From positions 1 to 64,000 of the IMG/VR virus record IMGVR_UViG_3300029959_000014: a stretch of DNA of 64,000 nucleotides; one strand, written 5' to 3'. The position numbers were made by a program, and so were the translations under genes. The notes beneath the pieces were generated by a model that ran no database searches, was not told the origin of the DNA, and saw nothing but the letters and a program-made list of their open reading frames with translations. The stretch comes from a virus. Shown here piece by piece: positions 32,512 through 49,414 of this stretch. The stretch's first letter is position 1; each line of letters starts with the position of its first letter.

Positions 32512-33102
32512 TCATTCACCAATTACTTGTTCGATCACCCTAGACGCTATATATGTGCTGTTGTCAAGGTTGTGCTGATCGGTGTTAATGATAGTGTATG
32601 GGTAGTTGAACATTTCTAGAATCATTTCGTAGCGGGACTGGATCATGGTAGCATACTGTGTGGTCATTTTTTCATTACGTTTTTGGCAACGTGCTGTTAG
32701 GGTAGTAGGATCGGCCTTGGTGAAGATTACGTGATCAATCCAGAGGGTGGGTGGTTGGTGACGTTCGATGTAATCGATTGCTTCTAGGGTTGTCCATCCA
32801 TATTGATCTTCAATTGCAAGTGATTGATAGACAAAGTTACAGATCATGGAACGATCACTAATGATGAGATCGCGCTTATCTGGTATGATGACTTCATTGT
32901 AAAGTTGTTCGCGATCTTTTGCAAACAATTCAATTAACTTTAATGCATCATCACATTGTTTAATAAGTGCAATGTTGTGTGCATAATATGGTTCTTTGAC
33001 GAATAGAGCATTGGTGAATAATGGATCACTGGATAATCTACGATGCATTGATGATTTACCACTAGCATCACAACCAGCCAGTGTTATTAATTTGCGTGTC
33101 AT
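32512..33102 (-). CDS. P-loop deoxynucleoside/deoxynucleotide (thymidylate-kinase-like) kinase
   Basis: It has Walker A LAGCDASGKSS, a VKEPYY block and an ERS-like ISDRSMICNFVY block. Confidence 0.5.
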   Translation of the reverse strand: MTRKLITLAGCDASGKSSMHRRLSSDPLFTNALFVKEPYYAHNIALIKQCDDALKLIELFAKDREQLYNEVIIPDKRDLIISDRSMICNFVYQSLAIEDQYGWTTLEAIDYIERHQPPTLWIDHVIFTKADPTTLTARCQKRNEKMTTQYATMIQSRYEMILEMFNYPYTIINTDQHNLDNSTYIASRVIEQVIGE

Positions 33103-33393
33103 AACTAGTATATTTGGTATGATGTTTTATAAAACTATTACATGTAAAGTTGATGTGATCACTAATTTTATATACGGACAATCACAACTATGTATTGTTA
33201 CTACTACTTTGACGGGCGGTATGTGACAAGAACCCCGCTTCAATTCTTGAAGCAAGAGTCTTCATAGCAAGAAACGCGCTTTATAGGTATAAACCTATTT
33301 AAGCGGCACTTGCGATTTAATGCTCTTATTTGTTAGGTGGTGTTTTGCTCCCATCACTTAACCATTAGTTTAATTGGCGTGAAGAATACATTC

Positions 33394-33407
33394 TTTCGCG
33401 CCGAAAT
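33394..33407 (+). promoter_or_regulatory. upstream GC element TTTCGCGCCGAAAT, 10 nt before the promoter box
   Basis: It is centred about -52 from the ATG of 33451. The same element lies upstream of several minus-strand genes. Confidence 0.45.
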
Positions 33408-33417
33408 ATACAATTAG

Positions 33418-33429
33418 TTTTATATAATA
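33418..33429 (+). promoter_or_regulatory. TTTTATATAATA box 21 nt upstream of the plus-strand gene ATG
   Basis: It is the plus-orientation copy of the motif. Confidence 0.55.
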
Positions 33430-33450
33430 TTACGCACATATAATACTGCT

Positions 33451-33810
33451 ATGGATGAATTTATTGATTATGAGAATATTTCTGATATGAATGATATTGT
33501 GGAAGATATAGAATCTGCTGAATGGGAAAGAAAAGTTCGATATGTTCGCGGTGTGGTGAAAGCCAAGATCATTGAAAAGGAGAGAGCAGCCGAAGCATTA
33601 TTGGAGGCCAATGAAAATTACGATAAGGTTGAAGAAGAATATAATGATTTGATTGCTAGAGATATTGATGATTTTGAAGTTCCAGTAGATTTTGAACGCA
33701 ACACATTATCCTCTGTCACAGTTTCTAAATATAATGGTAGAACTATTATTCCAAGTGGGTGGTCAGCGGTTTTTAATTCTGATGGATCTTCCTGGTCAGC
33801 AATTTACTGA
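33451..33810 (+). CDS. acidic hypothetical protein
   Basis: It is the second plus-strand gene and has its own promoter box and GC element. Confidence 0.5.
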   Translation: MDEFIDYENISDMNDIVEDIESAEWERKVRYVRGVVKAKIIEKERAAEALLEANENYDKVEEEYNDLIARDIDDFEVPVDFERNTLSSVTVSKYNGRTIIPSGWSAVFNSDGSSWSAIY

Positions 33811-34235
33811 TCACAACATTCTATCACTTTTATTTTTAAATCATTTCTAGTAACCATATAGATCATGGTTTCTATTAGAGTGCTATGATCATTGAATATT
33901 AATGCATGGGTGGCGCGTCGAATCATTGCAAATTGAGAACTGATAATTGGAAGTGCACCACAATTTCTAGTAGGCATTTCAACTTCGATTGGGATCTCTG
34001 TTAAAGATAACATACTGATTAAGGCAATATCACCCGTAGTATAATTGGTGATTAGGATTTTAGATATGTCGTGATCGCAGAGGTAGTCGATGAGTATATC
34101 TTGAGCAAATTTGTAATTGATTGTGTTGCTAGAAATGATATGTAAGTTGCTGGGTTTCATCACGATAATATTGTAATGTTTACAATTAAAAAATAGAAAG
34201 GTAAATCCTAGTAATTTATACTTTGGTGATCTCAA
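33804..34235 (-). CDS. hypothetical protein
   Basis: It is a co-oriented ORF. Confidence 0.4.
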   Translation of the reverse strand: MRSPKYKLLGFTFLFFNCKHYNIIVMKPSNLHIISSNTINYKFAQDILIDYLCDHDISKILITNYTTGDIALISMLSLTEIPIEVEMPTRNCGALPIISSQFAMIRRATHALIFNDHSTLIETMIYMVTRNDLKIKVIECCDQ

Positions 34236-34542
34236 TTATATTGGGAAAGAAACTCAATGGTGGAAATCTCATACCAGTTACGTTGATGTTGTAAGTTTCA
34301 TTTAATTTTATCTTTGCATAGCGATTTGATGCATCAACTTTTCCAACAAGCCAATTGTCACTTATAATGTAGACGTTATCTTCCATATCAACAATTTTGT
34401 ATGGAGTTGTAGGTATTTTTTCTTGTATAGTGATAGTTTTAGATGTTATGGTTACTGAAGAAATCAACATTAAAATTCCAAGTATAATTATAATTAGAAG
34501 TGCAAATACCACTTCAAACATTTCAGCATTATCACGTTGCAT
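34216..34542 (-). CDS. small TM protein
   Basis: It has an N-terminal TM helix. Confidence 0.35.
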   Translation of the reverse strand: MQRDNAEMFEVVFALLIIIILGILMLISSVTITSKTITIQEKIPTTPYKIVDMEDNVYIISDNWLVGKVDASNRYAKIKLNETYNINVTGMRFPPLSFFPNIIEITKV

Positions 34543-34686
34543 ATAATTTTATATGTAAGTGATAGTATAAAAATAAGATGTTATTCTAATGTGATATTTT
34601 GTTATTATAGTGAACAATATCAAGTTCACTTTGTCAGATGGATGAACAAGTTCTTGTGGTTATCATCGATCGTCATGTGGTGGTTA

Positions 34687-35046
34687 TCAAACTACAGCAA
34701 GTGTGACTTCATTGAGTTTAGAAATCAATCTCACGCTATTGTCAATTTTCTTTTTGTTGTATTGTCGTTCACGGAGTTCTTTGGCGATCACCTCGGGAGT
34801 TTTACTTAATCGGTAGACGTTGGTAGGTCGCCCGATATTGTTTTTAATTCGTTCGCTGATGGCAATGAAGTTGTCCTTGGTAAAGTCACTGATGATGTGG
34901 CTTACAACAGGCTGCTGGAGATCAGTCGCGCGTTCAAGTTCATGTTGAGTGAACTGTTTACGGGTTAAAATCTCTGTGAGAACTTCAGCCTTTTTGGGGT
35001 TGAGACCTAGGGTTTCAAGCGCCTTTATAATTTCTACTTGTTCCAT
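34687..35046 (-). CDS. winged-helix (MarR/TrmB-like) transcription regulator
   Basis: LGLNPKKAEVLTEIL..TQHELERATDLQQPVVSHII...IAISERI..GRPTNVYRL fits a wHTH. The likely start is the internal MEQVEII, which has ACTAGTATG and a TATA-like box at -22..-32. The 22-codon 5' extension in the ORF track is probably spurious. Confidence 0.4.
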   Translation of the reverse strand: MEQVEIIKALETLGLNPKKAEVLTEILTRKQFTQHELERATDLQQPVVSHIISDFTKDNFIAISERIKNNIGRPTNVYRLSKTPEVIAKELRERQYNKKKIDNSVRLISKLNEVTLAVV

Positions 35047-35234
35047 ACTAGTTAATATGATGTAATGAGATATATAATTATCGATTAGAAGGTAGTATAT
35101 ACTCAATGCCATTTACGAGGTGACTTGAATGTTTTACATTCGCATACAAGGTTGAATGTTGTATATAAGGCTTTAAATGCAAATGAAAGTGATTTTGGCG
35201 TGATTATTATATGTATGCGTATATAAAATAGAAG

Positions 35235-36122
35235 TTAAGTTGAATTCATATCTTCTAATTTGTTCTGGTAATAGGTGAAGATTGAACGTGGTGGAGACAT
35301 GAAATGTTTACGGGCTTCAGTGCTTACTTGTTTGGCAATTATCGGCATTGCGATCTTGACGTTTTTGAATTGTTCGGGGCCGATATCAGCAAGAACTTTA
35401 TCCAATGCCCCATAAATTTCACTGTCAGAAAGTGGTGGTAGTTCGACTTTATTGGGATCTATATCCTTTGGGATCTTATCAAGTTTTAAAGTATCGTGCT
35501 TTTCCTTGACGGCTAACAATCCATTGTTGTATGATGGTTTGTATGACTTGATTACAAAGCCCTCGATGTCTTGATGATCACGAAGCATACTGTCTCTGTA
35601 GGTGTAGAGATCTTCGATGCTGGTGTGTCTGGTGATTACCTGAACATCGATACATGGGATGTTACTGTGATGGCATTGTTGATGAAGGAAGTTATAGTGG
35701 GTGAATTGCTGGGTCTTGGAAGTCCATAGATCGAATGCTACGAATGATGGTTGATCATAGGTTTTAATACGGGTGGGAGATCGTCCTTTGGCCATCAACT
35801 CACCATAAAGGATGTAGTTATTACTCCAGTTACGAGCATCGAGTAATAGTTCCTTGATATTTTCTAGAAGTTGACCATCATCAATGCTTCGCGCAATACT
35901 CAAAAATGATGGATCTGCAATTGGTTGATTACGAGATCCCATTATGAGATTGTCTTCGTTGTCAAGATAGAAGCGAACATTGCTACCATCATGTTTAGGT
36001 TGCCAGAGAAGTTCTTCACCTAATATCATACCGGGACCAGGATACAATAATGCTATGCGATTGAGATGTGGATAAGTGATGTCACCGAGATTTAATGATA
36101 CTTGTTCTTTAACGTTAAACAT
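35235..36122 (-). CDS. ATP-dependent nucleotidyltransferase ligase (RNA/DNA ligase family)
   Basis: Motif I KHDGSN, motif III YILYGEL, motif IV EGFVIKSY and motif V LAVKEK are present in canonical order. Confidence 0.55.
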   Translation of the reverse strand: MFNVKEQVSLNLGDITYPHLNRIALLYPGPGMILGEELLWQPKHDGSNVRFYLDNEDNLIMGSRNQPIADPSFLSIARSIDDGQLLENIKELLLDARNWSNNYILYGELMAKGRSPTRIKTYDQPSFVAFDLWTSKTQQFTHYNFLHQQCHHSNIPCIDVQVITRHTSIEDLYTYRDSMLRDHQDIEGFVIKSYKPSYNNGLLAVKEKHDTLKLDKIPKDIDPNKVELPPLSDSEIYGALDKVLADIGPEQFKNVKIAMPIIAKQVSTEARKHFMSPPRSIFTYYQNKLEDMNST

Positions 36123-38160: not shown

Positions 38161-38637
38161 TTAATGATTATCATTGTCCAATACTATTTTACTATCGTTA
38201 CAATAAATCCATTGTTTCAATGTTTCTTTGTCTTTGAACATTTCAATGTTTCGATCTTCATCAGCGCGACTTTGATGATCAATGTAGGCACCTGAAGGAA
38301 GTTTCCAAATTAACTGGAGGTCTGATACTTCTTTAATCACTTCTATAAGCATTTGTCCTTCGGGAGTTTTCCACCCTTTAAATTCATCATATCCATATGG
38401 GTTTCTAATCATTGCCTCAACTTGTATCATTGTAAATACAATACGTGCTTGAACATCTTGTACAGTGTATGGACCCCATCCAAATTCAATGAAATCTGAT
38501 TTTGTTATGAGAGATGGATCAAATGTATTACTGTTTCTGTTGTATAATGGATCAAGTCTATCATAAGAAGAATTTCCAATTATGATATAGGAACTACTAG
38601 AACTATTACTTATGAAGCCATGTCGATACTTTACCAT
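38161..38637 (-). CDS. paralog 1 of the RHGFISNSSSSS family
   Basis: Its N-terminus MVKYRHGFISNSSSSSYIIIG is shared with the adjacent gene. Confidence 0.5.
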   Translation of the reverse strand: MVKYRHGFISNSSSSSYIIIGNSSYDRLDPLYNRNSNTFDPSLITKSDFIEFGWGPYTVQDVQARIVFTMIQVEAMIRNPYGYDEFKGWKTPEGQMLIEVIKEVSDLQLIWKLPSGAYIDHQSRADEDRNIEMFKDKETLKQWIYCNDSKIVLDNDNH

Positions 38638-38652
38638 TTTAATAAACCTTTA

Positions 38653-39033
38653 TTAATTGCTATAGCCACCATCGAATACCATGGGATTTTTAATTTCTAG
38701 AAAGTCCAATACTGATTGAAGTTCTTCCATCTTGTATGGTTTCTCACTTATATCATCGTCAAAGATAATTCCACCCCAACCAATGTAAGTATCGCCATCG
38801 TTATTTACTGTGTTGTATGGTGCTTTGCTAGAGATGTTTGGCCACCAAGTCACGATTTGCCAAGGATCGTCTTCAGTATCATAATCATCAATTAGTTCTT
38901 GCATATCATCATCACTGATCAGTGATTTGATTTTAGGCCATACAACTTCAACTATCTCATCAGTAAGTTTTGCACCAATAATTAAAAATGATGAACTTGA
39001 ACTGTTACTAATAAAACCATGTCTAACTTTCAT
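38653..39033 (-). CDS. paralog 2 of the RHGFISNSSSSS family
   Basis: Its N-terminus is MKVRHGFISNSSSSSFLIIG. It is a tandem duplicate with a diverged C-terminus. Confidence 0.5.
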   Translation of the reverse strand: MKVRHGFISNSSSSSFLIIGAKLTDEIVEVVWPKIKSLISDDDMQELIDDYDTEDDPWQIVTWWPNISSKAPYNTVNNDGDTYIGWGGIIFDDDISEKPYKMEELQSVLDFLEIKNPMVFDGGYSN

Positions 39034-40128: not shown

Positions 40129-40314
40129 CTATATAATGTGAATACCATTACCGTGCATAAGTTTACGTAGGTAATACTCGCGTTCATTTTTGTGATCTTG
40201 TGCATCAATAATAGTATTACATAATGATTTGTATAATTCACTATCATCTGTGTCACTAAATACAAAATTCTTAAGCATTTCAAATTCTTGATCTGTGAGG
40301 ACTAATTGATACAT
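40129..40314 (-). CDS. small acidic ORF immediately downstream of the radical-SAM gene
   Basis: It is separated by 6 nt from 40321-41397. Confidence 0.35.
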   Translation of the reverse strand: MYQLVLTDQEFEMLKNFVFSDTDDSELYKSLCNTIIDAQDHKNEREYYLRKLMHGNGIHII

Positions 40315-40320
40315 GACGAA

Positions 40321-41397
40321 TCATCCCCCTACACATAAATTAAATAGTGGACATTCTCGATTATTTGTTAGTAATTTTTTGCGGAACGAAGTGAAAGTTT
40401 CTGATTGCCAGAGATCATCTATGTTGGTTATGTTATTGATGTGAATTCCTTTGCATTGATCATTACTAAATGAGCAAGGATAGAAATTTCCAGTAGTATC
40501 TAAATATGCACTGAATAGTGTTGATTCACAAGATTCAATAACATCTTTAAATTGTTCCATTTGTTTATTGCATAGACACATAGGTGATGAACAAGAATCA
40601 AACCCTATACTGATGTTATTTGATAACGCATAGGATATAAAGTCGTCAAGCATCGATTGGGTGATGGGATGGAAATTGTCCTGTGCACGACCTTTTGGTT
40701 TTACCCAAAGGAATACAATTGCATTGGGATTGAAGTATGAGTTATCTTTGACTTCTTGGAGAATTTTCATTGCGTCATTGTAAGTTTCCATTGAAAGAAA
40801 TTGGTGGACATTGACTTGTGCTAATTTACTTGGAACATTATTCATATCACACTGCATGTAGTCAACCATCAGTATAGTATCTTCTAATTTGTAATTGCTA
40901 ATTGCTACTGCACCACAATGATTTCGAATAGCATGAAGTTGATCATCGACACCCATACCATGTAAATATTCGTGTGAAGCAATTGTTATGTTTGGTATGA
41001 TATTTTTACTTCTAGTGTATTTTAGGATGTCTTCCAGATGTGGAATGTAATTAAGACTTCCAACACCATATGCAATCTGCATCAATATGGGATTCATTGA
41101 TTTGATTTTATCAAGACTAGATTTGAATGTATCAATGTCAATTGTATCATTTGATGGCATACATGACTTGTAACACCAAGGACAACAATGATCACACGAT
41201 GAAGAAAGTTCCCAATCGAGATGTTCAAACATCGGTGCAACTTGTGGATCATTACTATGGTTGAATCCTTTACGTTCCATGTAACCATTCAATTTATTAA
41301 ACCTCACATTATACTGATCATTAGTAATGATCTTGTATTTACTATTTTCTTTGATGGTTAGTTTCAATTTATTCATACTATACACCAACATATACAT
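40321..41397 (-). CDS. radical-SAM-like enzyme with a Cys-rich (SPASM/twitch-like) C-terminal region
   Basis: CDHCCPWCY fits CxxxCxxC(Y). C-terminal CSSPMCLC...CES...CSF...C...CPLFNLC is a candidate auxiliary-cluster region. The glycine-rich SAM motif is not clear. Confidence 0.4.
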   Translation of the reverse strand: MYMLVYSMNKLKLTIKENSKYKIITNDQYNVRFNKLNGYMERKGFNHSNDPQVAPMFEHLDWELSSSCDHCCPWCYKSCMPSNDTIDIDTFKSSLDKIKSMNPILMQIAYGVGSLNYIPHLEDILKYTRSKNIIPNITIASHEYLHGMGVDDQLHAIRNHCGAVAISNYKLEDTILMVDYMQCDMNNVPSKLAQVNVHQFLSMETYNDAMKILQEVKDNSYFNPNAIVFLWVKPKGRAQDNFHPITQSMLDDFISYALSNNISIGFDSCSSPMCLCNKQMEQFKDVIESCESTLFSAYLDTTGNFYPCSFSNDQCKGIHINNITNIDDLWQSETFTSFRKKLLTNNRECPLFNLCVGG

Positions 41398-41577
41398 TTT
41401 AATATTTTACAACAGCGATACTTACAAATGATTCACCTTGGAAATTGTGTGTTCGTTCTATAACCTTATACACACAATAATCATGGATAATAAAGTCTCC
41501 AACTACTGGAGGAACTTCAAAATCCATGAAAGTGTCTTTATCACTGTTCCCCATAAATTCAACATTGATTTTCATAA

Positions 41578-41760
41578 CTAGAGTTTACACCCCATACAAA
41601 TTATTTCTTCTACTAATCCATTTACGTATAATTCACATTTCTTTTCAGCAATGTAATCATTAAGGTAGATGCATTCTCCACCAAAATTACATTGGTTGGT
41701 GTTGTCATCAAGTTCCAGACAGTGATTACTAGTATGTTTGTAGTTTGGATTATTTAACAT
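41578..41760 (-). CDS. small Cys-rich protein (60 aa)
   Basis: It has 7 Cys in 60 aa and starts CATAACTAGAGTTTACACC. Confidence 0.4.
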   Translation of the reverse strand: MLNNPNYKHTSNHCLELDDNTNQCNFGGECIYLNDYIAEKKCELYVNGLVEEIICMGCKL

Positions 41761-42482: not shown

Positions 42483-42513
42483 TACTAACTCCTCCGCATT
42501 AAAATTTTACTAT

Positions 42514-42786
42514 TCACATTATGTAGGGATCGTAAATTTGATTAAATTCATCGATGGTGAGATTCCATAGACATGGTTCAATACTGTCTTCGTAATCACG
42601 AATTTTATCACGGTCATTTAGATACATACAAAAGTAATCAGTATTAAGATCGTCGCTATAGAAAATACAAACACCACATGAACGAACTTGTCGTTCCAGT
42701 ATACTAGGGATATCAGCAATTCGAGTTCCTTGTTTACATAATCCTTCTAATTTTAAATTTGTACATATGTTTTCATAATAGTTCAT
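42514..42786 (-). CDS. small Cys-containing protein
   Basis: It is preceded by GGTGTAAACTCTAGTT before the ATG. Confidence 0.4.
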   Translation of the reverse strand: MNYYENICTNLKLEGLCKQGTRIADIPSILERQVRSCGVCIFYSDDLNTDYFCMYLNDRDKIRDYEDSIEPCLWNLTIDEFNQIYDPYIM

Positions 42787-43016
42787 AACTAGAGTTTACA
42801 CCGCCATAATTTTATAGACAAGTAATATACAGAATAATATGACGACTAATAATATAAATTGTTTGTATTTTTCATCATTAGTCACTAACAACCTCCGTGT
42901 AAGGTTTTGTGAAATATTCAGTGGCACACTTCATGTGAAAGTTGTGGCATGTAATCCAATTGGAAGTTTCACCGCGCTGGATAGGTTTTCCACAATAATA
43001 ACAGTGAATGTCTACA

Positions 43017-43271
43017 TTACTGGTGCTCATCATTATATCCTCTGTAGTTGCAAACTATTTCATTAAGTTGTTCTGATGATTCATAAATCTTATTATCTAA
43101 ATATGTTAAAAGTAACATGAAAGATGAAAAAACACACAAATAAAAAGATCCTTGTAGTATTATTGAACAAATATAATAATTATCATCGATAATAAGTCCT
43201 CTTACAATCCCAACTATTCCTATTAACAATAATATTAAATATACTCCAAATTTCTGTTTATAATAATGCAT
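43017..43271 (-). CDS. small TM protein
   Basis: It has two hydrophobic helices. Confidence 0.35.
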   Translation of the reverse strand: MHYYKQKFGVYLILLLIGIVGIVRGLIIDDNYYICSIILQGSFYLCVFSSFMLLLTYLDNKIYESSEQLNEIVCNYRGYNDEHQ

Positions 43272-43273
43272 CT

Positions 43274-43474
43274 TTAGAATCCTTGGAATTCATCACGAAT
43301 TTGCTCCTGTAAGATTTTCATTCTATCCATAAATCCATCATTATCTATGGAATCATTTACATAATATGTTCGTAGATAAATCAAGTATCTAATTTTGGAA
43401 TAAACTTCTTCACTCGTCTTGATCATCTCAAATAACATGTAATCGGTATTGGTGAGATCTCTAATTCTAATCAT
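43274..43474 (-). CDS. small hypothetical protein
   Basis: It is co-oriented and tightly packed. Confidence 0.3.
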   Translation of the reverse strand: MIRIRDLTNTDYMLFEMIKTSEEVYSKIRYLIYLRTYYVNDSIDNDGFMDRMKILQEQIRDEFQGF

Positions 43475-43710
43475 GATACAAATTCCTCATTATCATTGAT
43501 ACCTTCATCACAAGGGACTTGAGTATCGTAAATCGTTCTAATTGGTTTACCATTATGATCAATAATCATCATTCTACCAATAGTATATACTTTGTAATAT
43601 GGTGGATAATGTTTTAAAATGTCGATTAGATCGTGTATGTTAATTGTCATTACCAACCTCATCACTACATTTCTTATATAAATCATAGAAATACCATACG
43701 AATATCCCAA
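43471..43710 (-). CDS. small hypothetical protein
   Basis: It overlaps its neighbours in an operon-like way. Confidence 0.3.
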   Translation of the reverse strand: MGYSYGISMIYIRNVVMRLVMTINIHDLIDILKHYPPYYKVYTIGRMMIIDHNGKPIRTIYDTQVPCDEGINDNEEFVS

Positions 43711-43957
43711 TAACTATACAAATTACAAGCAATATAAATGTGATCTGTATAATGAAACATGCAAATGCTCCAATAATATTACCTATAAAGGTAATTACAA
43801 TACACAAAAATACTAGAAGTAACATTGCTCCGACAATAATTGATACGGTGCAGATCATACCAAATATTGCTTGTAAACTAGTCCATACATCAGATTTGAT
43901 GTGTTTTATAAAACAAGATTTATTTAACTTCATAATATACATTCCTCTAATGGACAT
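43640..43957 (-). CDS. multi-pass small membrane protein
   Basis: It has three hydrophobic segments. Confidence 0.35.
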   Translation of the reverse strand: MSIRGMYIMKLNKSCFIKHIKSDVWTSLQAIFGMICTVSIIVGAMLLLVFLCIVITFIGNIIGAFACFIIQITFILLVICIVIGIFVWYFYDLYKKCSDEVGNDN

Positions 43958-44075
43958 CCATCTGGTATTGTAATATAATTCCTGACGTTAGATCCTGTTA
44001 TCATACAATCTCCATAAATATCATGATATGGACATAATTTACAATTCTCTACTTTTATAATGATTTGTTTCATTA

Positions 44076-44285
44076 CTAGAGTTTTCCTTTTAATAATGGG
44101 CAATTATCAGGTGGTTCATCTTCCCAATTTACATAGGTTGTTACGTCATCATACGTCAGATCACACCAATATTTATCTTGGTAGAGACTTACATCTTCAC
44201 CTTCTGATTCATATTGATGTGGACACCCATTACAATGAACAATATTGTTAGTTATCATATTTACCAATTGTCTAATGGACACCAT
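44076..44285 (-). CDS. small Cys-rich protein (CNGCP...WCD...DNCPL)
   Basis: It is a member of a WC/CPL small-protein family. Confidence 0.4.
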   Translation of the reverse strand: MVSIRQLVNMITNNIVHCNGCPHQYESEGEDVSLYQDKYWCDLTYDDVTTYVNWEDEPPDNCPLLKGKL

Positions 44286-44467
44286 TTTGGGATGTCACCG
44301 GTTGTGTCATCAAATGGTTTTCCATCATCAGGAAATTTACCGAATACCGGGTGATTACATGAACAATAATCTTCGGAGTGTGTTTCTAATCCACTTGAAT
44401 GATAGCACCATCGACATGAATCAATTACATAACTTGGGACAATTTTCATAACTTGTTTAGACTTCAT
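44261..44467 (-). CDS. small Cys-rich protein (CRWC...CSCNHP...KWCPLDNW)
   Basis: It is paralog-like to 44076-44285. Confidence 0.4.
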   Translation of the reverse strand: MKSKQVMKIVPSYVIDSCRWCYHSSGLETHSEDYCSCNHPVFGKFPDDGKPFDDTTGDIPKWCPLDNW

Positions 44468-44759
44468 AACTAGTGTTTTCCTTTTTAGTGTTTGCCTTTT
44501 TAGAATTTGCCTTTTGATTTTTCTTTAAACAATACATGAGATTTATTACATTTATATCATAACCAATCACCATCATACAACCGTCTTCAGAACGAGCAAA
44601 ACCAGGTATAGATTCATCGGTTATGCATTCATAGGCATATCGACGCTTACCATGATCGCTAATGTAGGTTCTAGAATTGATCCAGAGATCTCCGGTTGGT
44701 GATATACAAGTTATGTAAGGATCATTACCTGTTATGAAGTCAAATATGGTATTGATCAT
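44457..44759 (-). CDS. hypothetical protein
   Basis: It is a co-oriented ORF. Confidence 0.35.
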   Translation of the reverse strand: MINTIFDFITGNDPYITCISPTGDLWINSRTYISDHGKRRYAYECITDESIPGFARSEDGCMMVIGYDINVINLMYCLKKNQKANSKKANTKKENTSYEV

Positions 44760-44771
44760 ATTAACACATTT

Positions 44772-45176
44772 TTATTCTTCCCATTGTTCGATCCATTCAA
44801 CATAGATGCCTTCATTATCAAATGTTATTATATATTTATCACCAGTGTAACATTTAAGTTGTTCTATAAAATGAGGAACTGTAACACCTGAATCTAAAGT
44901 TTTATATTTAAAACGTTTGAATTTATTAGTTGGATTGTATTTATCAAGATAAAACTGTTGAAGGTTTCCATCAACACGTTTCCAATATCCTTCTAGTTTA
45001 AACGGAGGACATTCATCAAGATATAAATTTTTTCTTGTTCTATCAGTTGTAAAACTTTTATATGCTGTTCCAATTACCATATCACCAAATCGAGACACTT
45101 GAAGTATTCCATTAAGTCCAACGATAACGTAGTCTCCTGGTTCTACATTATCATCAAAAGCACAATTCATCTGCAT
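44772..45176 (-). CDS. hypothetical protein
   Basis: It is a co-oriented ORF. Confidence 0.4.
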   Translation of the reverse strand: MQMNCAFDDNVEPGDYVIVGLNGILQVSRFGDMVIGTAYKSFTTDRTRKNLYLDECPPFKLEGYWKRVDGNLQQFYLDKYNPTNKFKRFKYKTLDSGVTVPHFIEQLKCYTGDKYIITFDNEGIYVEWIEQWEE

Positions 45177-45409
45177 AATTCATCATCTATCTTAAATTCA
45201 TTTATAATTGTTTGTGCATATTTTAATTCTGTTCGCAATTCAAATATCTCTTTAATATAATACTTTGATTGTTCTTCAAGTTGATTGTTTAATCGTTGCA
45301 AATTTTCATAACGTCGCTTATAATCATGTAATTGTTCTTCAGTGGTAGGTTTATACTTATGATCGTCACCAAAACTTGCATCAATTGCCATTAATTTCCT
45401 CACATTCAA
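45167..45409 (-). CDS. small coiled-coil protein
   Basis: It has E/Q/L/K heptads. Confidence 0.35.
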   Translation of the reverse strand: MNVRKLMAIDASFGDDHKYKPTTEEQLHDYKRRYENLQRLNNQLEEQSKYYIKEIFELRTELKYAQTIINEFKIDDELCR

Positions 45410-45725
45410 TATGCACTATTCCATCACGTATTGTAGTGATGAATTCCTTGGCTTCACTGTATGCATGATCGTCGTTTTCAGTTGAAAATTCCTTGAGGAC
45501 GATATCAGTGTTGTTTACTATGACTTTATAGATTTCAACCTTTCGTTTTATATAGAATCTACAGATGTGTTCAGCAAACCTTACACTGTAATTTGAATTT
45601 GCAAAGGGACAAACCACGTAATCGTTTTCTTTGTATCCAAGGAGTGTTTTTAATTCTTTACACCCACAAGCCTTATCACCATATCGGTATTGACCCATAA
45701 CTAGGGTAAATTTATTACTATCCAT
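45381..45725 (-). CDS. hypothetical protein
   Basis: It starts CATAACTAGGG. Confidence 0.35.
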   Translation of the reverse strand: MDSNKFTLVMGQYRYGDKACGCKELKTLLGYKENDYVVCPFANSNYSVRFAEHICRFYIKRKVEIYKVIVNNTDIVLKEFSTENDDHAYSEAKEFITTIRDGIVHIECEEINGN

Positions 45726-45734
45726 GACTTATCA

Positions 45735-46067
45735 TCATCCATCACACAATTTAGATATCCGCTTCCATATATTTGATATGATTTTAGATTTTTCTAATTC
45801 TTGTTCGCTTAATCCAAGATGCCTCCAAAGCGGGCGTCCGTTTTCTGCTTCTAGAATTTTTACTAACTGATCTCTCGTAATGGTATTTTTAATCGAAGCA
45901 TACATTTTCAATTTGCGAATTTCTCGCTTTAAGTAGTATGTATCATCCACCTTTTTAAGAAATGAACGAGGACATCTCTTATATTTAAGTTCACCATCTT
46001 TCTTATAAAGTAAAATAACATCACTGTCATCATTACCAAAGTTAAATAAATTAAATTCATTAAACAT
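45735..46067 (-). CDS. hypothetical basic protein
   Basis: It is a co-oriented ORF. Confidence 0.35.
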   Translation of the reverse strand: MFNEFNLFNFGNDDSDVILLYKKDGELKYKRCPRSFLKKVDDTYYLKREIRKLKMYASIKNTITRDQLVKILEAENGRPLWRHLGLSEQELEKSKIISNIWKRISKLCDG

Positions 46068-46069
46068 AA

Positions 46070-46297
46070 TTATAACCTACTTGAATTAATTATTTTTACA
46101 CCTAGGCATTGCACTGGGAATCCATCATCCTTGATAGCATCAACTTGGATGTCTTTGTGTAGACTCCCACAATAAAAGGTTTCTTCACTAGAATCTTCTT
46201 CCTCATAATGTGGACAATCCCTACATTTTTGAACATAAATTTTGATGATTCTAACGTCATTAATACTTGCGATTATAACCACGTCCTTCATAATCAT
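46070..46297 (-). CDS. small Cys-containing protein
   Basis: It has a CRDCPHY...C motif. Confidence 0.3.
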   Translation of the reverse strand: MIMKDVVIIASINDVRIIKIYVQKCRDCPHYEEEDSSEETFYCGSLHKDIQVDAIKDDGFPVQCLGVKIINSSRL

Positions 46298-46544
46298 GAC
46301 TCGTGTAACTGTTCATTCTAGTAGATATTTCGTCACGTAATCGGCTTTGCATTTCAATAATGGCATTACTGTAACGATCTGAACGAACATTCCTGTTGTC
46401 TATGTAGATTTCTAGTATCGCTAATGCCTCATCATTAATTTCAATAGATTTCATTTTGGATCTTGTATAAGATTCATCTAAATTTGATTCAACTACCTTG
46501 AGATCATCGAGTAAATTTTGAAGATTAAACATCGTTAATACCAC
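46260..46544 (-). CDS. hypothetical small protein
   Basis: It is a co-oriented ORF. Confidence 0.3.
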   Translation of the reverse strand: MVLTMFNLQNLLDDLKVVESNLDESYTRSKMKSIEINDEALAILEIYIDNRNVRSDRYSNAIIEMQSRLRDEISTRMNSYTSHDYEGRGYNRKY

Positions 46545-46740
46545 TTTGTATATGATAATGTGATCCGGCAGGAATCCATAAAGCGCGATATGACTGTTCT
46601 AAAAATTCATTGAATTTTCTAAAATCATGATAACATTTAATTCCAATTTCTGGCATGTATTCAGTTGTATGCATCATTGCTCGGTAACTTCGATGACGAA
46701 AGGCATAACGACCCCCATCGATTATAACAACCAATTTCAT
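46525..46740 (-). CDS. hypothetical small protein
   Basis: It is a co-oriented ORF. Confidence 0.3.
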   Translation of the reverse strand: MKLVVIIDGGRYAFRHRSYRAMMHTTEYMPEIGIKCYHDFRKFNEFLEQSYRALWIPAGSHYHIQSGINDV

Positions 46741-46988
46741 TTCGGAACATAATTACTTATTACCTCATTAAATTTTTCTATTCCAAGATCTGTTAACCAT
46801 GCTCCTCTCACAGATGTTCCATAGTCTATATACCCTTTATTAGACCATTTATACAAAGTTGCATAAATTTGTTTTTCAGCAACACCACATCTATTACATA
46901 ACTCATCTATTTGATCTGGTAGCCATATTTGATAATTAACAGAATTTAAAAAGATATTCATTAAAAATTTTTCTGCATCTAGATTCAT
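46737..46988 (-). CDS. hypothetical small protein
   Basis: It is a co-oriented ORF. Confidence 0.3.
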   Translation of the reverse strand: MNLDAEKFLMNIFLNSVNYQIWLPDQIDELCNRCGVAEKQIYATLYKWSNKGYIDYGTSVRGAWLTDLGIEKFNEVISNYVPK

Positions 46989-46997
46989 AATACAAAT

Positions 46998-47312
46998 TTA
47001 GACCTTTACGTTTGATCCTACGTGATAACACCCACACTTTACAATTCCATTATTTTTGAATGTAAAGACCATTGGAGAGCCATCATGTGTGCATTCCCAC
47101 CCTAGACGACGAATAAACCTTTTCAATTTCGTGATTCTCTCACCATCAGAATCATCATTACCAAATACATTGGATTGACTACCATAACCATCATATTCAT
47201 CGATCATTTCAACACCACTAACGATGTCATCAACAATGTCATCATTAATTTGTATGCCGTTATCAGCCAATATTTCCTTGACTGTATTACGTTTAACTTC
47301 TTCAAGACTCAT
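46998..47312 (-). CDS. hypothetical acidic protein
   Basis: It is a co-oriented ORF. Confidence 0.35.
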   Translation of the reverse strand: MSLEEVKRNTVKEILADNGIQINDDIVDDIVSGVEMIDEYDGYGSQSNVFGNDDSDGERITKLKRFIRRLGWECTHDGSPMVFTFKNNGIVKCGCYHVGSNVKV

Positions 47313-47335
47313 AAATATCGATATACCCCGTATTG

Positions 47336-47581
47336 TTAAGCCATTTTACATGAAAACTTTCTACTTCTTGCCTCTTCTATAGCAATCGATTCTAAATATT
47401 CTTTATGAACGTTGCAAAAATATTCATAGAGTCGTTCACTCAAGTCATAACTTGAAAAATTTAATTCTAACATTGTAATAAAATCATATATGGTATCTTC
47501 ATCAAAACCATATGAAATTTTAATTAAAATATCTTCAAGATCAACTTTAACATTAAAATCCACTTCATGTTTTTCATTCAT
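47336..47581 (-). CDS. hypothetical small protein
   Basis: It is a co-oriented ORF. Confidence 0.3.
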   Translation of the reverse strand: MNEKHEVDFNVKVDLEDILIKISYGFDEDTIYDFITMLELNFSSYDLSERLYEYFCNVHKEYLESIAIEEARSRKFSCKMA

Positions 47582-47880
47582 AACATATCTCCAACATTAT
47601 CATTTTCATAACATACACATTCTTTATATGCATCATACCAACTACCTTGATGATAGTTACAAATTTCATCGTAAACATCATAATGCTCTTTTATACATCT
47701 ACGTTTATAAACATCACAATGATGATATCCAGATTGGTGATTACATTTAAATTTATCAAATTTCTCACAATGTAAAACCCCATCTTCATTACACGACTCC
47801 TTATATATTTTTGAGTAAACATCTATGTTAAATTTCATTCTATCACAATACCTTTTTCTTTTTAGTTTGTCCATCAACAT
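47578..47880 (-). CDS. Cys/His/Tyr-rich small protein
   Basis: It has a CNHQSGYHHCDVYKRRC...CNYHQG...CVC cluster. Confidence 0.4.
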   Translation of the reverse strand: MLMDKLKRKRYCDRMKFNIDVYSKIYKESCNEDGVLHCEKFDKFKCNHQSGYHHCDVYKRRCIKEHYDVYDEICNYHQGSWYDAYKECVCYENDNVGDML

Positions 47881-48127
47881 ATAATGTCAATTGAAAGTTA
47901 TAATCTTCCCACAACTCTTTATATAATTCTCCCTTTTTACCACAATCGTGTAAATGAGACTTAACATGAATTTCAAAATCCATGGTAGAATTAATTATTT
48001 CATCATAAATTTCAGATGAAATTTTCCTGGCATTCTTTGAAGTGTAAACTCTTCCAAGCCCCAATACTTTCACCTGTCTAATTAATCGTTTACACAACTC
48101 CATTTTATATTCATCATATTTGTTCAT
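47843..48127 (-). CDS. hypothetical basic protein
   Basis: It is a co-oriented ORF. Confidence 0.35.
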   Translation of the reverse strand: MNKYDEYKMELCKRLIRQVKVLGLGRVYTSKNARKISSEIYDEIINSTMDFEIHVKSHLHDCGKKGELYKELWEDYNFQLTLYVDGQTKKKKVL

Positions 48128-48504
48128 TCTATCACAATCCCTTTACCCCTTAAATTCTCCACGCATTCCTTATAATAAGCGTCGTCGTGTTCTGGGTAGA
48201 TGATATCTAGTTCGGTTGCATCACACAGTATATCATAATCAATTACCCATGAATTATCACATGTTTTACCACGATATGATGATCTAAACCATGATGTGTC
48301 AACTTTATATCCCCTATCATCCATTTCCATCATTACTACATTGTGATATGCAACCAACCACTCCACCGGATACTTAAACACATAATCCACAGTGCTATGT
48401 TTCTTACCCCATCCAAGACCCCTCAATGCTGCGCATTCGCGATGCTGCCCGAGCAACTGCTGCCTTGGGAGTTTGGGAATTAATTTTTGATGCCATAATC
48501 TCAT
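48124..48504 (-). CDS. possible pyrimidine-dimer DNA glycosylase (DenV/Pyr_excise-like)
   Basis: KLPRQQLLGQHRECAALRG aligns with the endonuclease V block ELADQHLMAEYRELPRV. The N-terminal MR (not MT) leaves the catalysis assignment uncertain. Confidence 0.35.
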   Translation of the reverse strand: MRLWHQKLIPKLPRQQLLGQHRECAALRGLGWGKKHSTVDYVFKYPVEWLVAYHNVVMMEMDDRGYKVDTSWFRSSYRGKTCDNSWVIDYDILCDATELDIIYPEHDDAYYKECVENLRGKGIVIE

Positions 48505-48660
48505 AACAATACACCTAAAATTATAGAGGTTCCTCGCTATTTGCTAATACAAAAAATTCGCCAGGCCATACATGAATACATATATAGTTTTCATTTATAT
48601 CACCATGCACTCTAATCTCATGATCTCCATACGTTTCTATAAATCCTTCTAATTTTTTAA

Positions 48661-48826
48661 CTAATTCGCTTGTTTGCATTTCCATTCTCCATTTTCATAC
48701 CAATATAACGCATGACATAGTTCACAATGTCCAGTATCTTTACAATCATCAATACCATAAAGTAAAATGTTGCCATTACAATACTTACAGTTCATTATTA
48801 TTAATTTCTGATGCCACAATCTCATA
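48661..48826 (-). CDS. small Cys-rich protein sharing the MRLWHQKLI start with the neighbouring gene
   Basis: The likely start is the internal ATG (MRLWHQKLIIMNCKYCNG...CELCH...C). The longer track ORF 48661-48918 overlaps the TM gene 48822-49031. Confidence 0.35.
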
Positions 48827-49031
48827 TTACACCATACATTTCTAAAACTGCTCCGATCGCCAATATGATAAATATCCACATAAATATGAGACATATAATC
48901 GGAAGTTTGAACCCCCACACTTTATAATCATACCATGCGGAAATTGTCATGGAAATCATAGCATACGAACCACCAATCCCAATTGCAATAACAAATAGGA
49001 TTATTAAACAAATTAATAACTCAACAAACAT
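48822..49031 (-). CDS. small two-TM membrane protein
   Basis: It is strongly hydrophobic. Confidence 0.35.
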   Translation of the reverse strand: MFVELLICLIILFVIAIGIGGSYAMISMTISAWYDYKVWGFKLPIICLIFMWIFIILAIGAVLEMYGVI

Positions 49032-49414
49032 TTTAAATCACCACAAATTCAAAAATAAGCGTCAGCAACATTGCTGTAAAAAACCCAATTACAGCACTAA
49101 TTATATATGATTTTAAGTTTTCAGTCATTTTTCACCATGCCATATAATTTCAACTGGGAGTTCATGTCGTTCCTCAATAGCAATACCATATATGAAGCAA
49201 GCAATGTAATTCAATACAATATCACTCATTTCCTATGCCTCAATTACATGAATTGGTATCATGGTTATTCACCGGTGCATTCTGGCTCTGAACCATATAC
49301 TGGGCACTCTGGGCCACACCATCCAGATATCCCACATATTTCACAATCAGTCATACCACGCCCATAATCTAGTAACGGGTCGTGACTTACAAACGGACTG
49401 TATAAGTTACCCAT

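What the first reader, a model, noticed from the sequence alone, without database searches (positions are those of the whole stretch)
40129..41760. A radical-SAM/SPASM-like enzyme flanked by tiny Cys-rich ORFs may be a virus-encoded peptide-modification (RiPP-like) module
The 358-aa ORF at 40321-41397 has CDHCCPWCY (CxxxCxxC-aromatic) near the N-terminus and a cysteine-dense C-terminal third of the kind that binds auxiliary Fe-S clusters in SPASM/twitch maturases. It is immediately bracketed by a 61-aa acidic ORF (40129-40314) and a 60-aa ORF with 7 cysteines (41578-41760). That arrangement is expected for a precursor peptide plus maturase. No queuosine-pathway or RNR-activase context is present to explain it otherwise.
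Basis: partly seen in the sequence, partly recalled or inferred. Interest (0 to 1): 0.65.

Follow-up and report, generated by a model that had tools for sequence, protein, structure and literature searches.

The report
Phage radical-SAM enzyme with tagged partner proteins
The flagged gene is a real radical-SAM enzyme of the peptide/protein-modifying type, but its conserved partners are not the tiny neighbouring ORFs: they are a huge, undescribed family of fast-evolving phage proteins, two of them 1.3-2.2 kb downstream, that all begin with the same 16-residue serine-rich tag.

Summary

**The proposed precursors are not supported.**
- The 60-aa ORF has 6 Cys, not 7.
- A 58-aa ORF separates it from the enzyme.
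- 26 of 90 small ORFs in the window are equally Cys-rich.
- None of the flanking ORFs has a homolog in 116 other rSAM loci.

**The real partner is a family of variable proteins starting MK[IV]RxGF[VI]SNSSSSS[FY].**
- It occurs within 10 kb in 74 of 80 viral rSAM loci. All 353 genes are on the same strand as the enzyme gene, with up to 13 per locus there.
- It is the only co-conserved neighbour.
- The window has two copies (38653-39033 and 38161-38637).
- The tag is conserved at the protein level, not the DNA level, and is predicted disordered.
- The family has about 17,000 representative clusters, no Pfam entry and no literature.
- Cultured RB43/KP15-type phages carry both genes.

**Most likely mechanism** (inferred, about 0.6): the enzyme modifies the tag post-translationally.

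The parts
40321..41397 (-). Gene for a 358-aa radical-SAM enzyme with a C-terminal twitch/SPASM Fe-S domain. It belongs to an uncharacterised viral family, phrog_7293. In-frame ATGs at codons 1, 3 and 7 mean the true start may be codon 7.
41173..41196 (-). Codons for C68-x3-C72-x2-C75 (CDHCCPWC), the radical-SAM [4Fe-4S] binding motif.
   Evidence: Motif position. C68, C72, C75 and Y76 are invariant in 34- and 56-sequence family alignments. Cluster binding itself is inferred from the radical-SAM superfamily.
40333..40593 (-). C-terminal auxiliary-cluster region (aa 269-355). The invariant Cys are C269, C290, C308 and C349, with C290-x13-G-x4-C308. There is no CX2CX5CX3C block. This is a twitch-like, single-auxiliary-cluster architecture.
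   Evidence: Alignments. Pfam SPASM on aa 290-349. NCBIfam N_Twi_rSAM partial hit. BtrN twitch region in the PDB profile search at E 3e-5. The number of clusters is inferred from the count of invariant Cys.
41263..41397 (-). N-terminal all-beta mini-domain (aa 1-45, five strands) preceding the barrel. It carries family-invariant Y29, F33, G38 and G44. It is a candidate docking site for the substrate tag (inference).
   Evidence: AF2 secondary structure. Invariant columns. No Pfam RRE/PqqD hit.
38653..39033 (-). Gene for a 126-aa tag-bearing protein, identical to database protein P0121. It is a candidate substrate and belongs to the commonest subfamily, of roughly 110-130 aa.
   Evidence: N-terminal tag HMM at E 1.1e-12. 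AF2 pLDDT 82.8 with residues 1-12 below 50. No structural neighbour found.
38986..39033 (-). Codons for the N-terminal tag MKVRHGFISNSSSSSF of the 126-aa protein.
   Evidence: invariant M1, R4, G6, F7, S9, N10, S11, S12, S13, S15; protein-level conservation.
38161..38637 (-). Gene for a second tag-bearing protein of 158 aa, with a different variable body.
   Evidence: Tag HMM at E 1.9e-8. It clusters with the family.
38587..38637 (-). Codons for the tag MVKYRHGFISNSSSSSY of the 158-aa protein.

Best explanation
**What it is.** The ORF encodes a radical-SAM enzyme with three parts: a small N-terminal beta domain, a partial TIM barrel with CX3CX2C, and a C-terminal twitch-type domain that probably holds one auxiliary [4Fe-4S] cluster.

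**What it works with.** It is one half of a two-component system found almost only in phages. The other half is a set of 1-15 rapidly diversifying proteins per locus. Every one starts with the near-invariant 16-residue tag MK[IV]RxGF[VI]SNSSSSS[FY]. This window has two, at 38161-39033, on the same strand and 1.3-2.2 kb downstream.

**Proposed mechanism.**
1. The exposed, unstructured tag is the enzyme's substrate.
2. The enzyme docks the tag, possibly on its N-terminal beta domain.
3. It cleaves SAM to a 5'-deoxyadenosyl radical and abstracts a hydrogen from a tag residue.
4. The auxiliary cluster takes up the second electron, giving an oxidative modification.

Candidate products are serine oxidation to formylglycine (as in anSME or BtrN-type dehydrogenases) or a Phe-to-C-beta crosslink on F7-V8-S9 (as in triceptide synthases). 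Epimerisation is a third option.

**Biological role.** One enzyme would mature a whole battery of variable phage proteins, plausibly host-takeover or counter-defence effectors.

**Shown:** enzyme class and fold; the gene association; protein-level invariance of the tag; the tag's predicted disorder.

**Inferred:** that the tag is the substrate; the chemistry; the biological role.
For: **Enzyme identity**
- Invariant CX3CX2C and four invariant C-terminal Cys.
- SPASM hit above the Pfam cut-off.
- Homologs carry PF04055 and PF13186.
- AF2 pLDDT 93.9 and pTM 0.92.

**Association with the tag family**
- 74 of 80 viral loci fetched through the enzyme have tag genes within 10 kb.
- All 353 tag genes are on the enzyme's strand: 291 downstream and 60 upstream. 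In 53 of 80 loci one starts within 700 nt of the enzyme gene.
- The result survives dereplication: 62 of 66 enzyme clusters at 90% identity and 55 of 58 at 70%.
- Reverse test: 30 of 49 loci fetched through the tag alone carry the enzyme within 10 kb on the same strand.
- 23 of 29 MAG or genome loci also carry the pair.
- Among all ORFs within 6 kb in 117 loci, only these two families are widespread. The third most common family is in 11 loci.
- In cultured phages the enzyme (172 records) and a tagged protein (175 records) occur in the same clade.

**The tag behaves like a recognition or modification site**
- It sits at residue 1.
- Tag amino-acid identity is 0.86 against 0.49 at third codon positions. 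All six Ser codons are used.
- The enzymes have diverged to a median 44% identity while the tag stays fixed.
- The rest of each protein is not conserved (mean column identity across the alignment 10-20%).
- AF2 places residues 1-12 outside the fold at pLDDT below 50, although they are the best-conserved columns.
- One enzyme gene accompanies many tagged genes, which fits an enzyme-substrate relation.
Against: - There is no biochemical evidence. The modification, its site and even binding are all inferred.
- In this window five unrelated small ORFs separate the enzyme gene from the tag genes.
- In RB43/Slopekvirus phages the two lie 20-25 kb apart, so tight operon coupling is not universal.
- 6 of 80 enzyme loci and 19 of 49 tag loci lack the partner within 10 kb. 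Some of these are at contig ends.
- No RRE domain is detectable.
- The low pLDDT of the tag could be a modelling artefact.
- An invariant N-terminal peptide on variable proteins can also be a sorting signal, as in T4 internal proteins.
- The tag is more conserved than the enzyme. That suggests an additional constraint, such as a host or virion partner.
Confidence: 0.6

Rival explanations
1. One reading: the flanking 61-aa acidic ORF and the 60-aa Cys-rich ORF are precursor peptides matured by the enzyme, in a classical RiPP cluster.
For: The ORFs exist and are close to the enzyme gene on the same strand. The 60-aa ORF has 6 Cys. The enzyme's fold neighbours include thioether-forming maturases.
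Against: - Neither ORF, nor the intervening 58-aa ORF, has a homolog in any of 116 other loci encoding this enzyme family.
- They match no Pfam, PHROG or NCBIfam family.
- 29% of small ORFs in the window are equally Cys-rich.
- The 60-aa ORF is not adjacent to the enzyme gene.
- The region is a typical run of small phage early-type ORFs, as in Matisse and leE.
Confidence: 0.03
2. The tag is a sorting, packaging or stability signal read by some other machinery. Examples would be capsid targeting as in T4 internal proteins, export, or a degron. On this model the rSAM enzyme acts on a different substrate, and the genes travel together only as parts of one accessory cassette.
For: - Arrays of variable proteins sharing a short invariant N-terminus are the pattern known for T4-type internal proteins with a capsid-targeting sequence (established knowledge).
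- The tag is more conserved than the enzyme.
- In Matisse the genes are 20-25 kb apart.
Against: - The association is bidirectional and strand-consistent. It holds across enzymes only about 44% identical and across bacterial and archaeal virus contigs. Nothing else is co-conserved.
- The tag has no Glu, so it lacks the (L/I)xE cleavage site of the T4 prohead protease.
- The tag is Ser-rich rather than hydrophobic, so it is not Sec- or Tat-like.
- This model leaves the enzyme without a substrate.
Confidence: 0.2
3. The tagged proteins are not substrates but partners of the enzyme. They could be adaptors that present different targets to it, or users of a small-molecule product it makes, with the tag serving as the docking peptide.
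For: The co-occurrence evidence is the same. The variable bodies could be target-recognition modules. The tag is exposed.
Against: - The nearest structural relatives modify the peptide they bind.
- The variable bodies have no recognisable binding or enzymatic domains.
- An adaptor model needs a further unknown substrate.
Confidence: 0.1
4. The enzyme is a nucleotide or nucleic-acid modifying rSAM. It could be viperin-like, or involved in the unexplained DNA modification reported for KP27-type phages. The tag family would then be unrelated.
For: - KP15/KP27-type phages, which carry a homolog, are reported to have an unknown DNA modification (PMC5219037).
Against: - Viperin and MoaA rank below the top three peptide or protein maturases.
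- The KP27 paper does not implicate this gene, and the restriction resistance differs between KP15 and KP27. KP15, for one, carries both the enzyme and a tagged protein (L085, 76).
- No nucleotide-metabolism gene is co-conserved with the enzyme.
- This model does not explain the tag-family association.
Confidence: 0.05

Closest known systems
SuiB (streptide Lys-Trp crosslinking rSAM-SPASM maturase) and SkfB (sporulation killing factor thioether rSAM with a twitch domain)
   Different: - Sequence identity is only 11-12%.
- No NCBIfam maturase family reaches its cut-off.
- No RRE domain was detected. A roughly 45-aa all-beta domain sits at the N-terminus instead.
- The putative substrates are folded proteins of 47-390 aa carrying the conserved element at the extreme N-terminus, with no invariant Cys, Lys or Trp.
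- The system is viral, with up to 15 substrate genes per enzyme.
anSME / AtsB (anaerobic sulfatase-maturating enzyme) and BtrN (twitch rSAM dehydrogenase)
   Different: - The tag lacks the (C/S)xPxR sulfatase motif.
- The enzyme has four rather than about eight invariant auxiliary Cys.
- The partner proteins are not sulfatases and have no recognisable fold.
- BtrN acts on a small molecule.
Triceptide synthases (3-residue cyclophane-forming rSAM/SPASM enzymes, e.g. ChlB)
   Different: - There is no sequence-family membership.
- An aromatic-X-X triplet is a weak criterion that any Phe satisfies.
- Triceptide precursors are short peptides with leader regions, whereas here the partners are proteins with the motif at the N-terminus.
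T4-type internal proteins with an N-terminal capsid-targeting sequence
   Same: Both are phage-encoded sets of highly variable proteins sharing a short conserved N-terminal peptide, encoded in plastic early regions of large myoviruses (recalled knowledge, not tested here).
   Different: - The tag sequence is unrelated and lacks the (L/I)xE protease site.
- The family is tied to an rSAM enzyme gene, which internal proteins are not.
- It also occurs on archaeal-virus-like and Asgard MAG contigs.
Prochlorosin-type RiPP systems (one promiscuous maturase, many precursors with a conserved leader and hypervariable core)
   Same: Both follow the logic of one enzyme and many substrates that share a conserved recognition segment and diverge elsewhere (recalled knowledge).
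   Different: - The enzyme class differs (a lanthionine synthetase against an rSAM).
- Here the conserved segment is 16 residues, and is likely the modified site itself rather than a long leader.
- The variable parts are folded domains rather than short cores.

Membership tests
Radical SAM superfamily (PF04055) | CX3CX2C motif providing three Cys to a [4Fe-4S] cluster | tested here: met
   C68-x3-C72-x2-C75 followed by an aromatic Y76. All are invariant in 34- and 56-sequence alignments.
Radical SAM superfamily (PF04055) | Partial (beta/alpha)6 TIM-barrel fold | tested here: met
Radical SAM superfamily (PF04055) | Significant match to the PF04055 profile | tested here: inconclusive
   The window protein itself gives no PF04055 hit at E <= 1. 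Most of its homologs at 35-50% identity do carry PF04055.
Radical SAM superfamily (PF04055) | SAM-binding motifs: a Gly-rich 'GGE'-like motif after beta2 and a ribose motif | tested here: inconclusive
   Conserved Q107-I-A109-x-G111-x-G and P135-N136-I-T138 lie at the expected strands. Assignment is by position only, with no ligand modelling.
Radical SAM superfamily (PF04055) | Reductive cleavage of SAM | not testable with these tools
   This needs anaerobic enzymology.
SPASM subfamily (PF13186 / TIGR04085) | Match to the SPASM profile above the curated cut-off | tested here: met
   PF13186 scores 24.7 bits against a 21.5 cut-off on aa 290-349. TIGR04085 scores 24.2 against 27 on the Matisse homolog, just below its cut-off.
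SPASM subfamily (PF13186 / TIGR04085) | Seven-Cys motif CX9-15GX4C ... CX2CX5CX3C ... C ligating two auxiliary clusters | tested here: not met
   Only C269, C290, C308 and C349 are invariant. C290-x13-G-x4-C308 is present, but the family has no CX2CX5CX3C block.
Twitch subclass of rSAM enzymes (BtrN, SkfB, MoaA type) | Truncated SPASM domain with one auxiliary cluster ligated by the CX9-15GX4C pair plus flanking Cys | tested here: met
RiPP biosynthetic cluster (rSAM maturase plus precursor peptide) | A short precursor-peptide gene conserved next to the maturase | tested here: not met
   The 61-, 58- and 60-aa flanking ORFs are singletons across 117 loci. The conserved partners are proteins of 47-390 aa, median 131.
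RiPP biosynthetic cluster (rSAM maturase plus precursor peptide) | A conserved recognition segment shared by substrates that vary elsewhere | tested here: met
   A 16-residue N-terminal tag is invariant, while mean column identity across the alignments is only 10-20%.
RiPP biosynthetic cluster (rSAM maturase plus precursor peptide) | RRE (PqqD-like) leader-binding domain, and a co-encoded leader protease or exporter | tested here: not met
   No PqqD/RRE Pfam hit. No third family is co-conserved within 6 kb. A structurally divergent peptide-binding role for the N-terminal beta domain cannot be excluded.
anSME / sulfatase maturation | Substrate motif (C/S)xPxR in a sulfatase, and two auxiliary clusters | tested here: not met
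   The tag RxGFVSNSSSSSF has no xPxR. The partner proteins have no sulfatase domain. Only four auxiliary Cys are invariant.
Curated NCBIfam rSAM maturase families (MftC, PqqE, StsB, CXXX-repeat, W-cofactor, Geo-metal and others) | Score above the family's curated cut-off | tested here: not met
   The best hits score 15-32 bits against cut-offs of 170-625.
T4-type internal proteins (capsid-targeting sequence) | N-terminal targeting peptide ending in an (L/I)xE prohead-protease site, and presence in virions | tested here: not met
   There is no Glu in tag positions 1-16 in 259 distinct tags. Virion presence was not testable.

The most novel reading that the evidence does not exclude
This is a previously unrecognised, widespread phage and archaeal-virus protein-tagging system. 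A dedicated twitch-type radical-SAM enzyme installs a radical-mediated modification on an invariant 16-residue N-terminal tag. The modification could be serine oxidation to an aldehyde, or an aromatic-to-C-beta or ether crosslink. The tag is carried by arrays of fast-evolving effector proteins, so one enzyme matures a whole arsenal. This would be a protein-scale, virus-encoded analogue of RiPP biosynthesis with new chemistry on a Ser-rich motif. It is testable in cultured E. coli and Klebsiella phages (RB43, RB16, Lw1, KP15, Matisse).
Probability: 0.5. Interest if true: 0.88.

Novelty: new variant of a known kind. Interest (0 to 1): 0.78.

Why it matters
**Scale of what is unexplained.** If the enzyme modifies the tag, that gives a function to two large families that currently have none. 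The enzyme family has more than 2,000 clusters. The tag family has about 17,000 representative clusters at 50% identity and no Pfam, NCBIfam or PADLOC entry.

**New rSAM biology.** It would reveal a new substrate class for rSAM-twitch enzymes: folded proteins bearing a Ser-rich N-terminal tag. It probably involves new post-translational chemistry.

**Phage biology.** It would point to a large hidden set of diversifying phage proteins of the kind usually involved in host takeover or counter-defence.

**Practical use.** The tag-enzyme pair could become a protein-labelling tool.

**Tractability.** The pair is present in cultured, genetically tractable phages of E. coli and Klebsiella, so the question can be tested directly.

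Tried and rejected
1. **Flanking small ORFs as precursors: rejected.** They match no Pfam, PHROG or NCBIfam family. They have no homologs in six, and then in 116, related loci. Their Cys-richness is ordinary for this window.
2. **A DNA-level repeat explaining the shared gene starts: rejected.** Synonymous sites vary freely, with 0.49 identity at third positions and all six Ser codons in use.
3. **Near-identical cultured relative of the window: none found.** Megablast against phages gave no match.
4. **tblastn with a tag consensus against cultured phages: a false negative.** It found nothing, which turned out to be caused by low-complexity masking. An HMM scan of the whole Matisse genome found two tagged genes, and their full-length protein then retrieved 175 records.
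6. **Divergent rSAM in the 19 tag loci that lack the enzyme: none detected**.
7. **Literature: nothing on the motif or the pairing**. The Avs2 paper's rSAM, Avap1, is a different, bacterial protein.
8. **AFDB fold search: unavailable**.
9. **PPR proteins at the top of the PDB profile search: spurious.** They are repeated short matches to a single helix-loop segment.
Full report
**1. The observation**

The window has a 358-aa ORF at 40321-41397 on the minus strand. It contains CDHCCPWCY at residues 68-76, so the CX3CX2C motif is C68/C72/C75. It has 15 Cys, of which 8 lie in residues 269-355.

- The 61-aa ORF (40129-40314) follows the enzyme gene directly. It is acidic and has a single Cys.
- The 60-aa ORF (41578-41760) has 6 Cys, not 7.
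- A 58-aa ORF (41399-41575) separates the 60-aa ORF from the enzyme gene.
- Cys-rich small ORFs are common here. 26 of 90 small minus-strand ORFs have at least 4 Cys. One lying near the enzyme carries no information.

The window is part of a phage genome. It encodes a DNA polymerase, helicase, clamp loader, RNA ligase, nicotinamide phosphoribosyltransferase, an MT-A70 methylase, a PD-(D/E)XK nuclease and a dNMP kinase. It has one tRNA-Leu. It has no close cultured relative. None of the 30 ORFs of at least 150 aa matches a queuosine-pathway protein or NrdD/NrdG.

**2. The enzyme**

Sequence evidence:

- Pfam SPASM matches residues 290-349 above its cut-off, at 24.7 bits against 21.5.
- PF04055 does not reach E <= 1 on this sequence. 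It is present on most of its more than 2,169 database homologs, which are up to 51% identical.
- The protein matches phrog_7293, a family of unknown function, at 2e-51.
- It is about 32% identical to proteins annotated "radical SAM protein" in 172 cultured T4-like phages of the RB43, Slopekvirus and Karamvirus groups.

Conserved residues in family alignments:

- C68, C72, C75 and Y76 are invariant.
- In the C-terminal half only C269, C290, C308 and C349 are invariant, with C290-x13-G-x4-C308.
- The CX2CX5CX3C block of a full SPASM domain is missing. I therefore infer a twitch-type domain with one auxiliary cluster.
- A partial N_Twi_rSAM hit and a BtrN twitch match agree with this.

Structure:

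- AlphaFold2 with a 56-sequence alignment gives pLDDT 93.9 and pTM 0.92.
- The model has a five-stranded N-terminal beta mini-domain (aa 2-43), then the barrel, then the Cys-rich C-terminal domain.

The enzyme class is therefore settled. Most of its nearest structural relatives act on peptides or proteins. No curated NCBIfam maturase family comes near its cut-off, so this is an unnamed family.

**3. The proposed precursors**

- The 61-, 58- and 60-aa ORFs match no family.
- They have no counterpart in six related loci.
- In a clustering of all ORFs within 6 kb of the enzyme gene in 117 loci, they are singletons.
- In Matisse and leE the homologous gene also sits in a long run of small hypothetical genes. 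Being "flanked by tiny ORFs" is simply the local genome style.

**4. What actually travels with the enzyme**

The same tblastn run showed that two ORFs further downstream in the window have several paralogs directly beside the enzyme gene in other contigs. They are 38653-39033 (126 aa) and 38161-38637 (158 aa), and both begin MK.RHGFISNSSSSS. I followed this lead in several ways.

| Test | Result |
|---|---|
| Viral loci fetched through the enzyme (80) | 74 have at least one tag gene within 10 kb |
| Strand and position of the 353 tag genes | All on the enzyme's strand; 291 downstream, 60 upstream |
| Adjacency | In 53 of 80 loci a tag gene starts within 700 nt of the enzyme gene |
| Dereplication | 62 of 66 enzyme clusters at 90% identity; 55 of 58 at 70% |
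| Reverse test: loci fetched through GF[VI]SNSSS alone (49) | 30 contain the enzyme within 10 kb, same strand |
| MAG or genome loci (29) | 23 also have the pair |
| Other co-conserved families within 6 kb (117 loci) | Tag family in 103 loci (435 proteins); next family in 11 loci |
| Exact pattern matches | 300 in 1.5 Mb of enzyme loci; 563 matching stretches in the whole 2.9-million-contig viral collection |

Further points:

- Up to 13 tag genes occur per enzyme-anchored locus, and up to 15 in tag-anchored loci.
- Of the 19 tag loci without the enzyme nearby, four are cut at the contig end where the enzyme normally lies (tag genes start within about 500 nt of the end). Two others lie on contigs that carry the enzyme elsewhere.
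- The 29 genome loci come from 185,579 species' genomes. Most are phage-sized MAG contigs, so the enzyme family is essentially viral.

**5. Nature of the tag family**

- In two alignments (30 and 76 members) K2, R4, S9, N10, S11 and S12 are invariant or nearly so. M1, G6, F7, S13, S15 and F16 are invariant in one alignment or reach at least 90%.
- Mean column identity across the alignments is only 10-20%, and the bodies beyond the tag are not conserved.
- Across 259 distinct tag DNA sequences, amino-acid identity is 0.86 while third-position identity is 0.49. All six Ser codons, AGY and TCN, appear at every Ser position. Conservation is therefore on the protein and not on a DNA or RNA element.
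- S13 and S14 tolerate Thr. S9, N10, S11 and S12 never vary.
- The enzymes in the same loci have diverged to a median 44% pairwise identity.
- AlphaFold2 of the window's 126-aa protein with a 57-sequence subfamily alignment gives pLDDT 82.8. Residues 1-12 fall below 50 and lie outside the fold. The first strand begins at residue 14.
- 76 long members have no Pfam domains apart from two weak zinc-ribbon hits.
- The family matches only phrog_7293's neighbour in the PHROG library, phrog_7397, which also has unknown function. It has nothing in Pfam, NCBIfam or PADLOC.
- A full HMMER scan of 1.84 billion cluster representatives finds 17,222 members at E <= 1e-3. In the listed best hits the match almost always starts at residue 1.
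- No paper in the library contains the motif.

**6. Cultured phages**

- A tblastn with a tag consensus found nothing. This was a low-complexity masking artefact.
- An HMM scan of the complete Klebsiella phage Matisse genome found two tagged genes, CPT_Matisse113 and CPT_Matisse118. They begin MKIRSGFVSNSSSSSF.
- They lie 20-25 kb from the enzyme gene CPT_Matisse164, on the same strand.
- Homologs of gp118 occur in 175 cultured-phage records. The genus breakdown is nearly the same as for the enzyme's 172 records. The set includes RB43, RB16, Lw1, KP15 and phiEap-3.
- This is one clade, so it is not independent evidence. It does provide tractable experimental systems.
- The report of an unknown DNA modification in KP27 does not involve this gene (PMC5219037).

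**7. Mechanism**

*Shown:*

- This is a twitch-type rSAM enzyme with a peptide-maturase-like fold.
- It has a strong, bidirectional, strand-consistent gene association with exactly one other family.
- That family shares an N-terminal, protein-level-invariant tag that is predicted to be exposed.
- One enzyme gene accompanies many tagged genes.

*Inferred (confidence about 0.6):* the tag is the enzyme's substrate.

The chemistry is open. A single fully Cys-ligated auxiliary cluster is typical of rSAM enzymes that oxidise the substrate radical. I therefore favour an oxidative outcome, and see three options:

1. Ser oxidation to formylglycine. This is analogous to anSME acting on a protein and BtrN acting on an alcohol. 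The strictly invariant serines fit.
2. An aromatic-to-C-beta crosslink on F7-V8-S9. This is the aromatic-X-X logic of triceptide synthases (PMC11499958), and ChlB is a fold neighbour.
3. Epimerisation, as in EpeE/YydG.

Thioether chemistry is unlikely as the common reaction, because the tag has no invariant Cys.

The biological role is an inference. The tandem, rapidly diverging arrays in early-type regions of large phages resemble host-takeover or counter-defence effectors.

**8. Rivals**

| Rival | Assessment | Confidence |
|---|---|---|
| Tag is a sorting or packaging signal read by other machinery | The T4 internal-protein analogy applies, and the tag is more conserved than the enzyme. The tag lacks the (L/I)xE site, and this model leaves the enzyme without a substrate. 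| 0.2 |
| Tagged proteins are adaptors or cofactor users | Possible | 0.1 |
| Enzyme modifies nucleotides or DNA | Possible | 0.05 |

**9. Comparison and novelty**

The system works like an rSAM maturase with dedicated ribosomal substrates. It is not a member of any defined family:

- The full SPASM Cys motif was tested and is not met.
- No curated maturase model passes its cut-off.
- There is no RRE domain, protease or exporter.
- The substrates are proteins, not peptides.
- The sulfatase motif is absent.

I file it as a new variant of a known kind. The association and the tag family appear to be undescribed.

**10. Caveats**

- All functional statements beyond enzyme class and gene association are inference.
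- Many loci come from related metagenomic phages, although dereplication did not change the result.
- Gene calls in the loci are simple ORF calls.
- The disorder of the tag is a prediction.
- In this particular window the enzyme and tag genes are separated by five unrelated small ORFs.

Noticed in passing
window 42500-52200 and scattered (e.g. 47578-47880, 48661-48894, 51485-51793, 55365-55640): Small ORFs with CxxC pairs are unusually dense. 26 of 90 small minus-strand ORFs have at least 4 Cys, and some have 7-9. They look like zinc-ribbon-type small proteins. All those near the enzyme gene are singletons without homologs in related loci.
   Followed up: partly
window 17810-19849 (-): This 679-aa ORF matches phrog_1735 (unknown function) end to end at E 7.8e-259. 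It is a large, highly conserved phage protein with no assigned function, lying next to the helicase, DUF5662 and NAMPT genes.
   Followed up: no
window 30001-36000: GC skew turns positive (+0.16 to +0.20) in this stretch, while the rest of the window is negative. The large ORFs there (30704-31357, 32512-33102, 35235-36122) are still on the minus strand. This is unexplained.
   Followed up: no
L139 7876-11524 (Promethearchaeota MAG, 793-kb contig JAHPZA010000009.1): On a long Asgard-archaeon contig the rSAM gene is paired convergently with a single tagged gene (MKFRYGFVSNSSSMSF...). The pair sits right after a 662-aa OLD/AriA/GajA-like ATPase-nuclease (PADLOC Old at E 1.5e-26). It may be a cellular or proviral copy of the pair inside a defence or mobile island.
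   Followed up: partly
L147 (NZ_JBHSCL010000010.1, 'Flagellimonas marina' contig of 178,077 bp): In the stretch examined, this contig of a marine Flavobacteriia isolate assembly encodes proteins matching those of the RB43-like phage in L084, and the contig is phage-sized. It is probably a contaminating or mis-binned enterobacterial phage genome.
   Followed up: partly
Many loci, e.g. L024 7513-9114, L037 16803-17183, L082 12567-13181, L036 11037-11561: A recurrent subtype of the tag family has a CxxC-containing motif immediately after the tag (...SSSF[IV]CD[VI]CGE..SGWDM.L). It suggests a zinc-ribbon-like module fused directly to the tag.
   Followed up: no
Phage records KX431559.1 (leB) and OK631813.1 (Kpn35c1): In some cultured relatives the rSAM gene is split into two ORFs. 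According to PMC9960720 a GIY-YIG homing endonuclease gene is associated with the split in Kpn35c1. These are natural disruptions that could serve as knockouts.
   Followed up: no
window 41379-41397: The rSAM ORF has three in-frame ATGs, at codons 1, 3 and 7. Homologs align from about codon 7 (MNKLKL...). The first ATG lies 1 nt after the stop of the upstream 58-aa ORF, so the true start is uncertain.
   Followed up: partly
L096 10131-12592 and L118 10992-12095, 18122-19771: Two tag-family loci that lack the usual enzyme carry other large CX3CX2C-containing ORFs (367-549 aa) a few kb from the tag genes. These might be different radical-SAM enzymes.
   Followed up: no
window 20549-21175 (-) and 23820-24710 (-): An MT-A70-type adenine methyltransferase with a TTG start, and an HNH-endonuclease-like ORF, lie within the replication module. 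The local GC skew minimum (-0.37) is at 20-22 kb.
   Followed up: no
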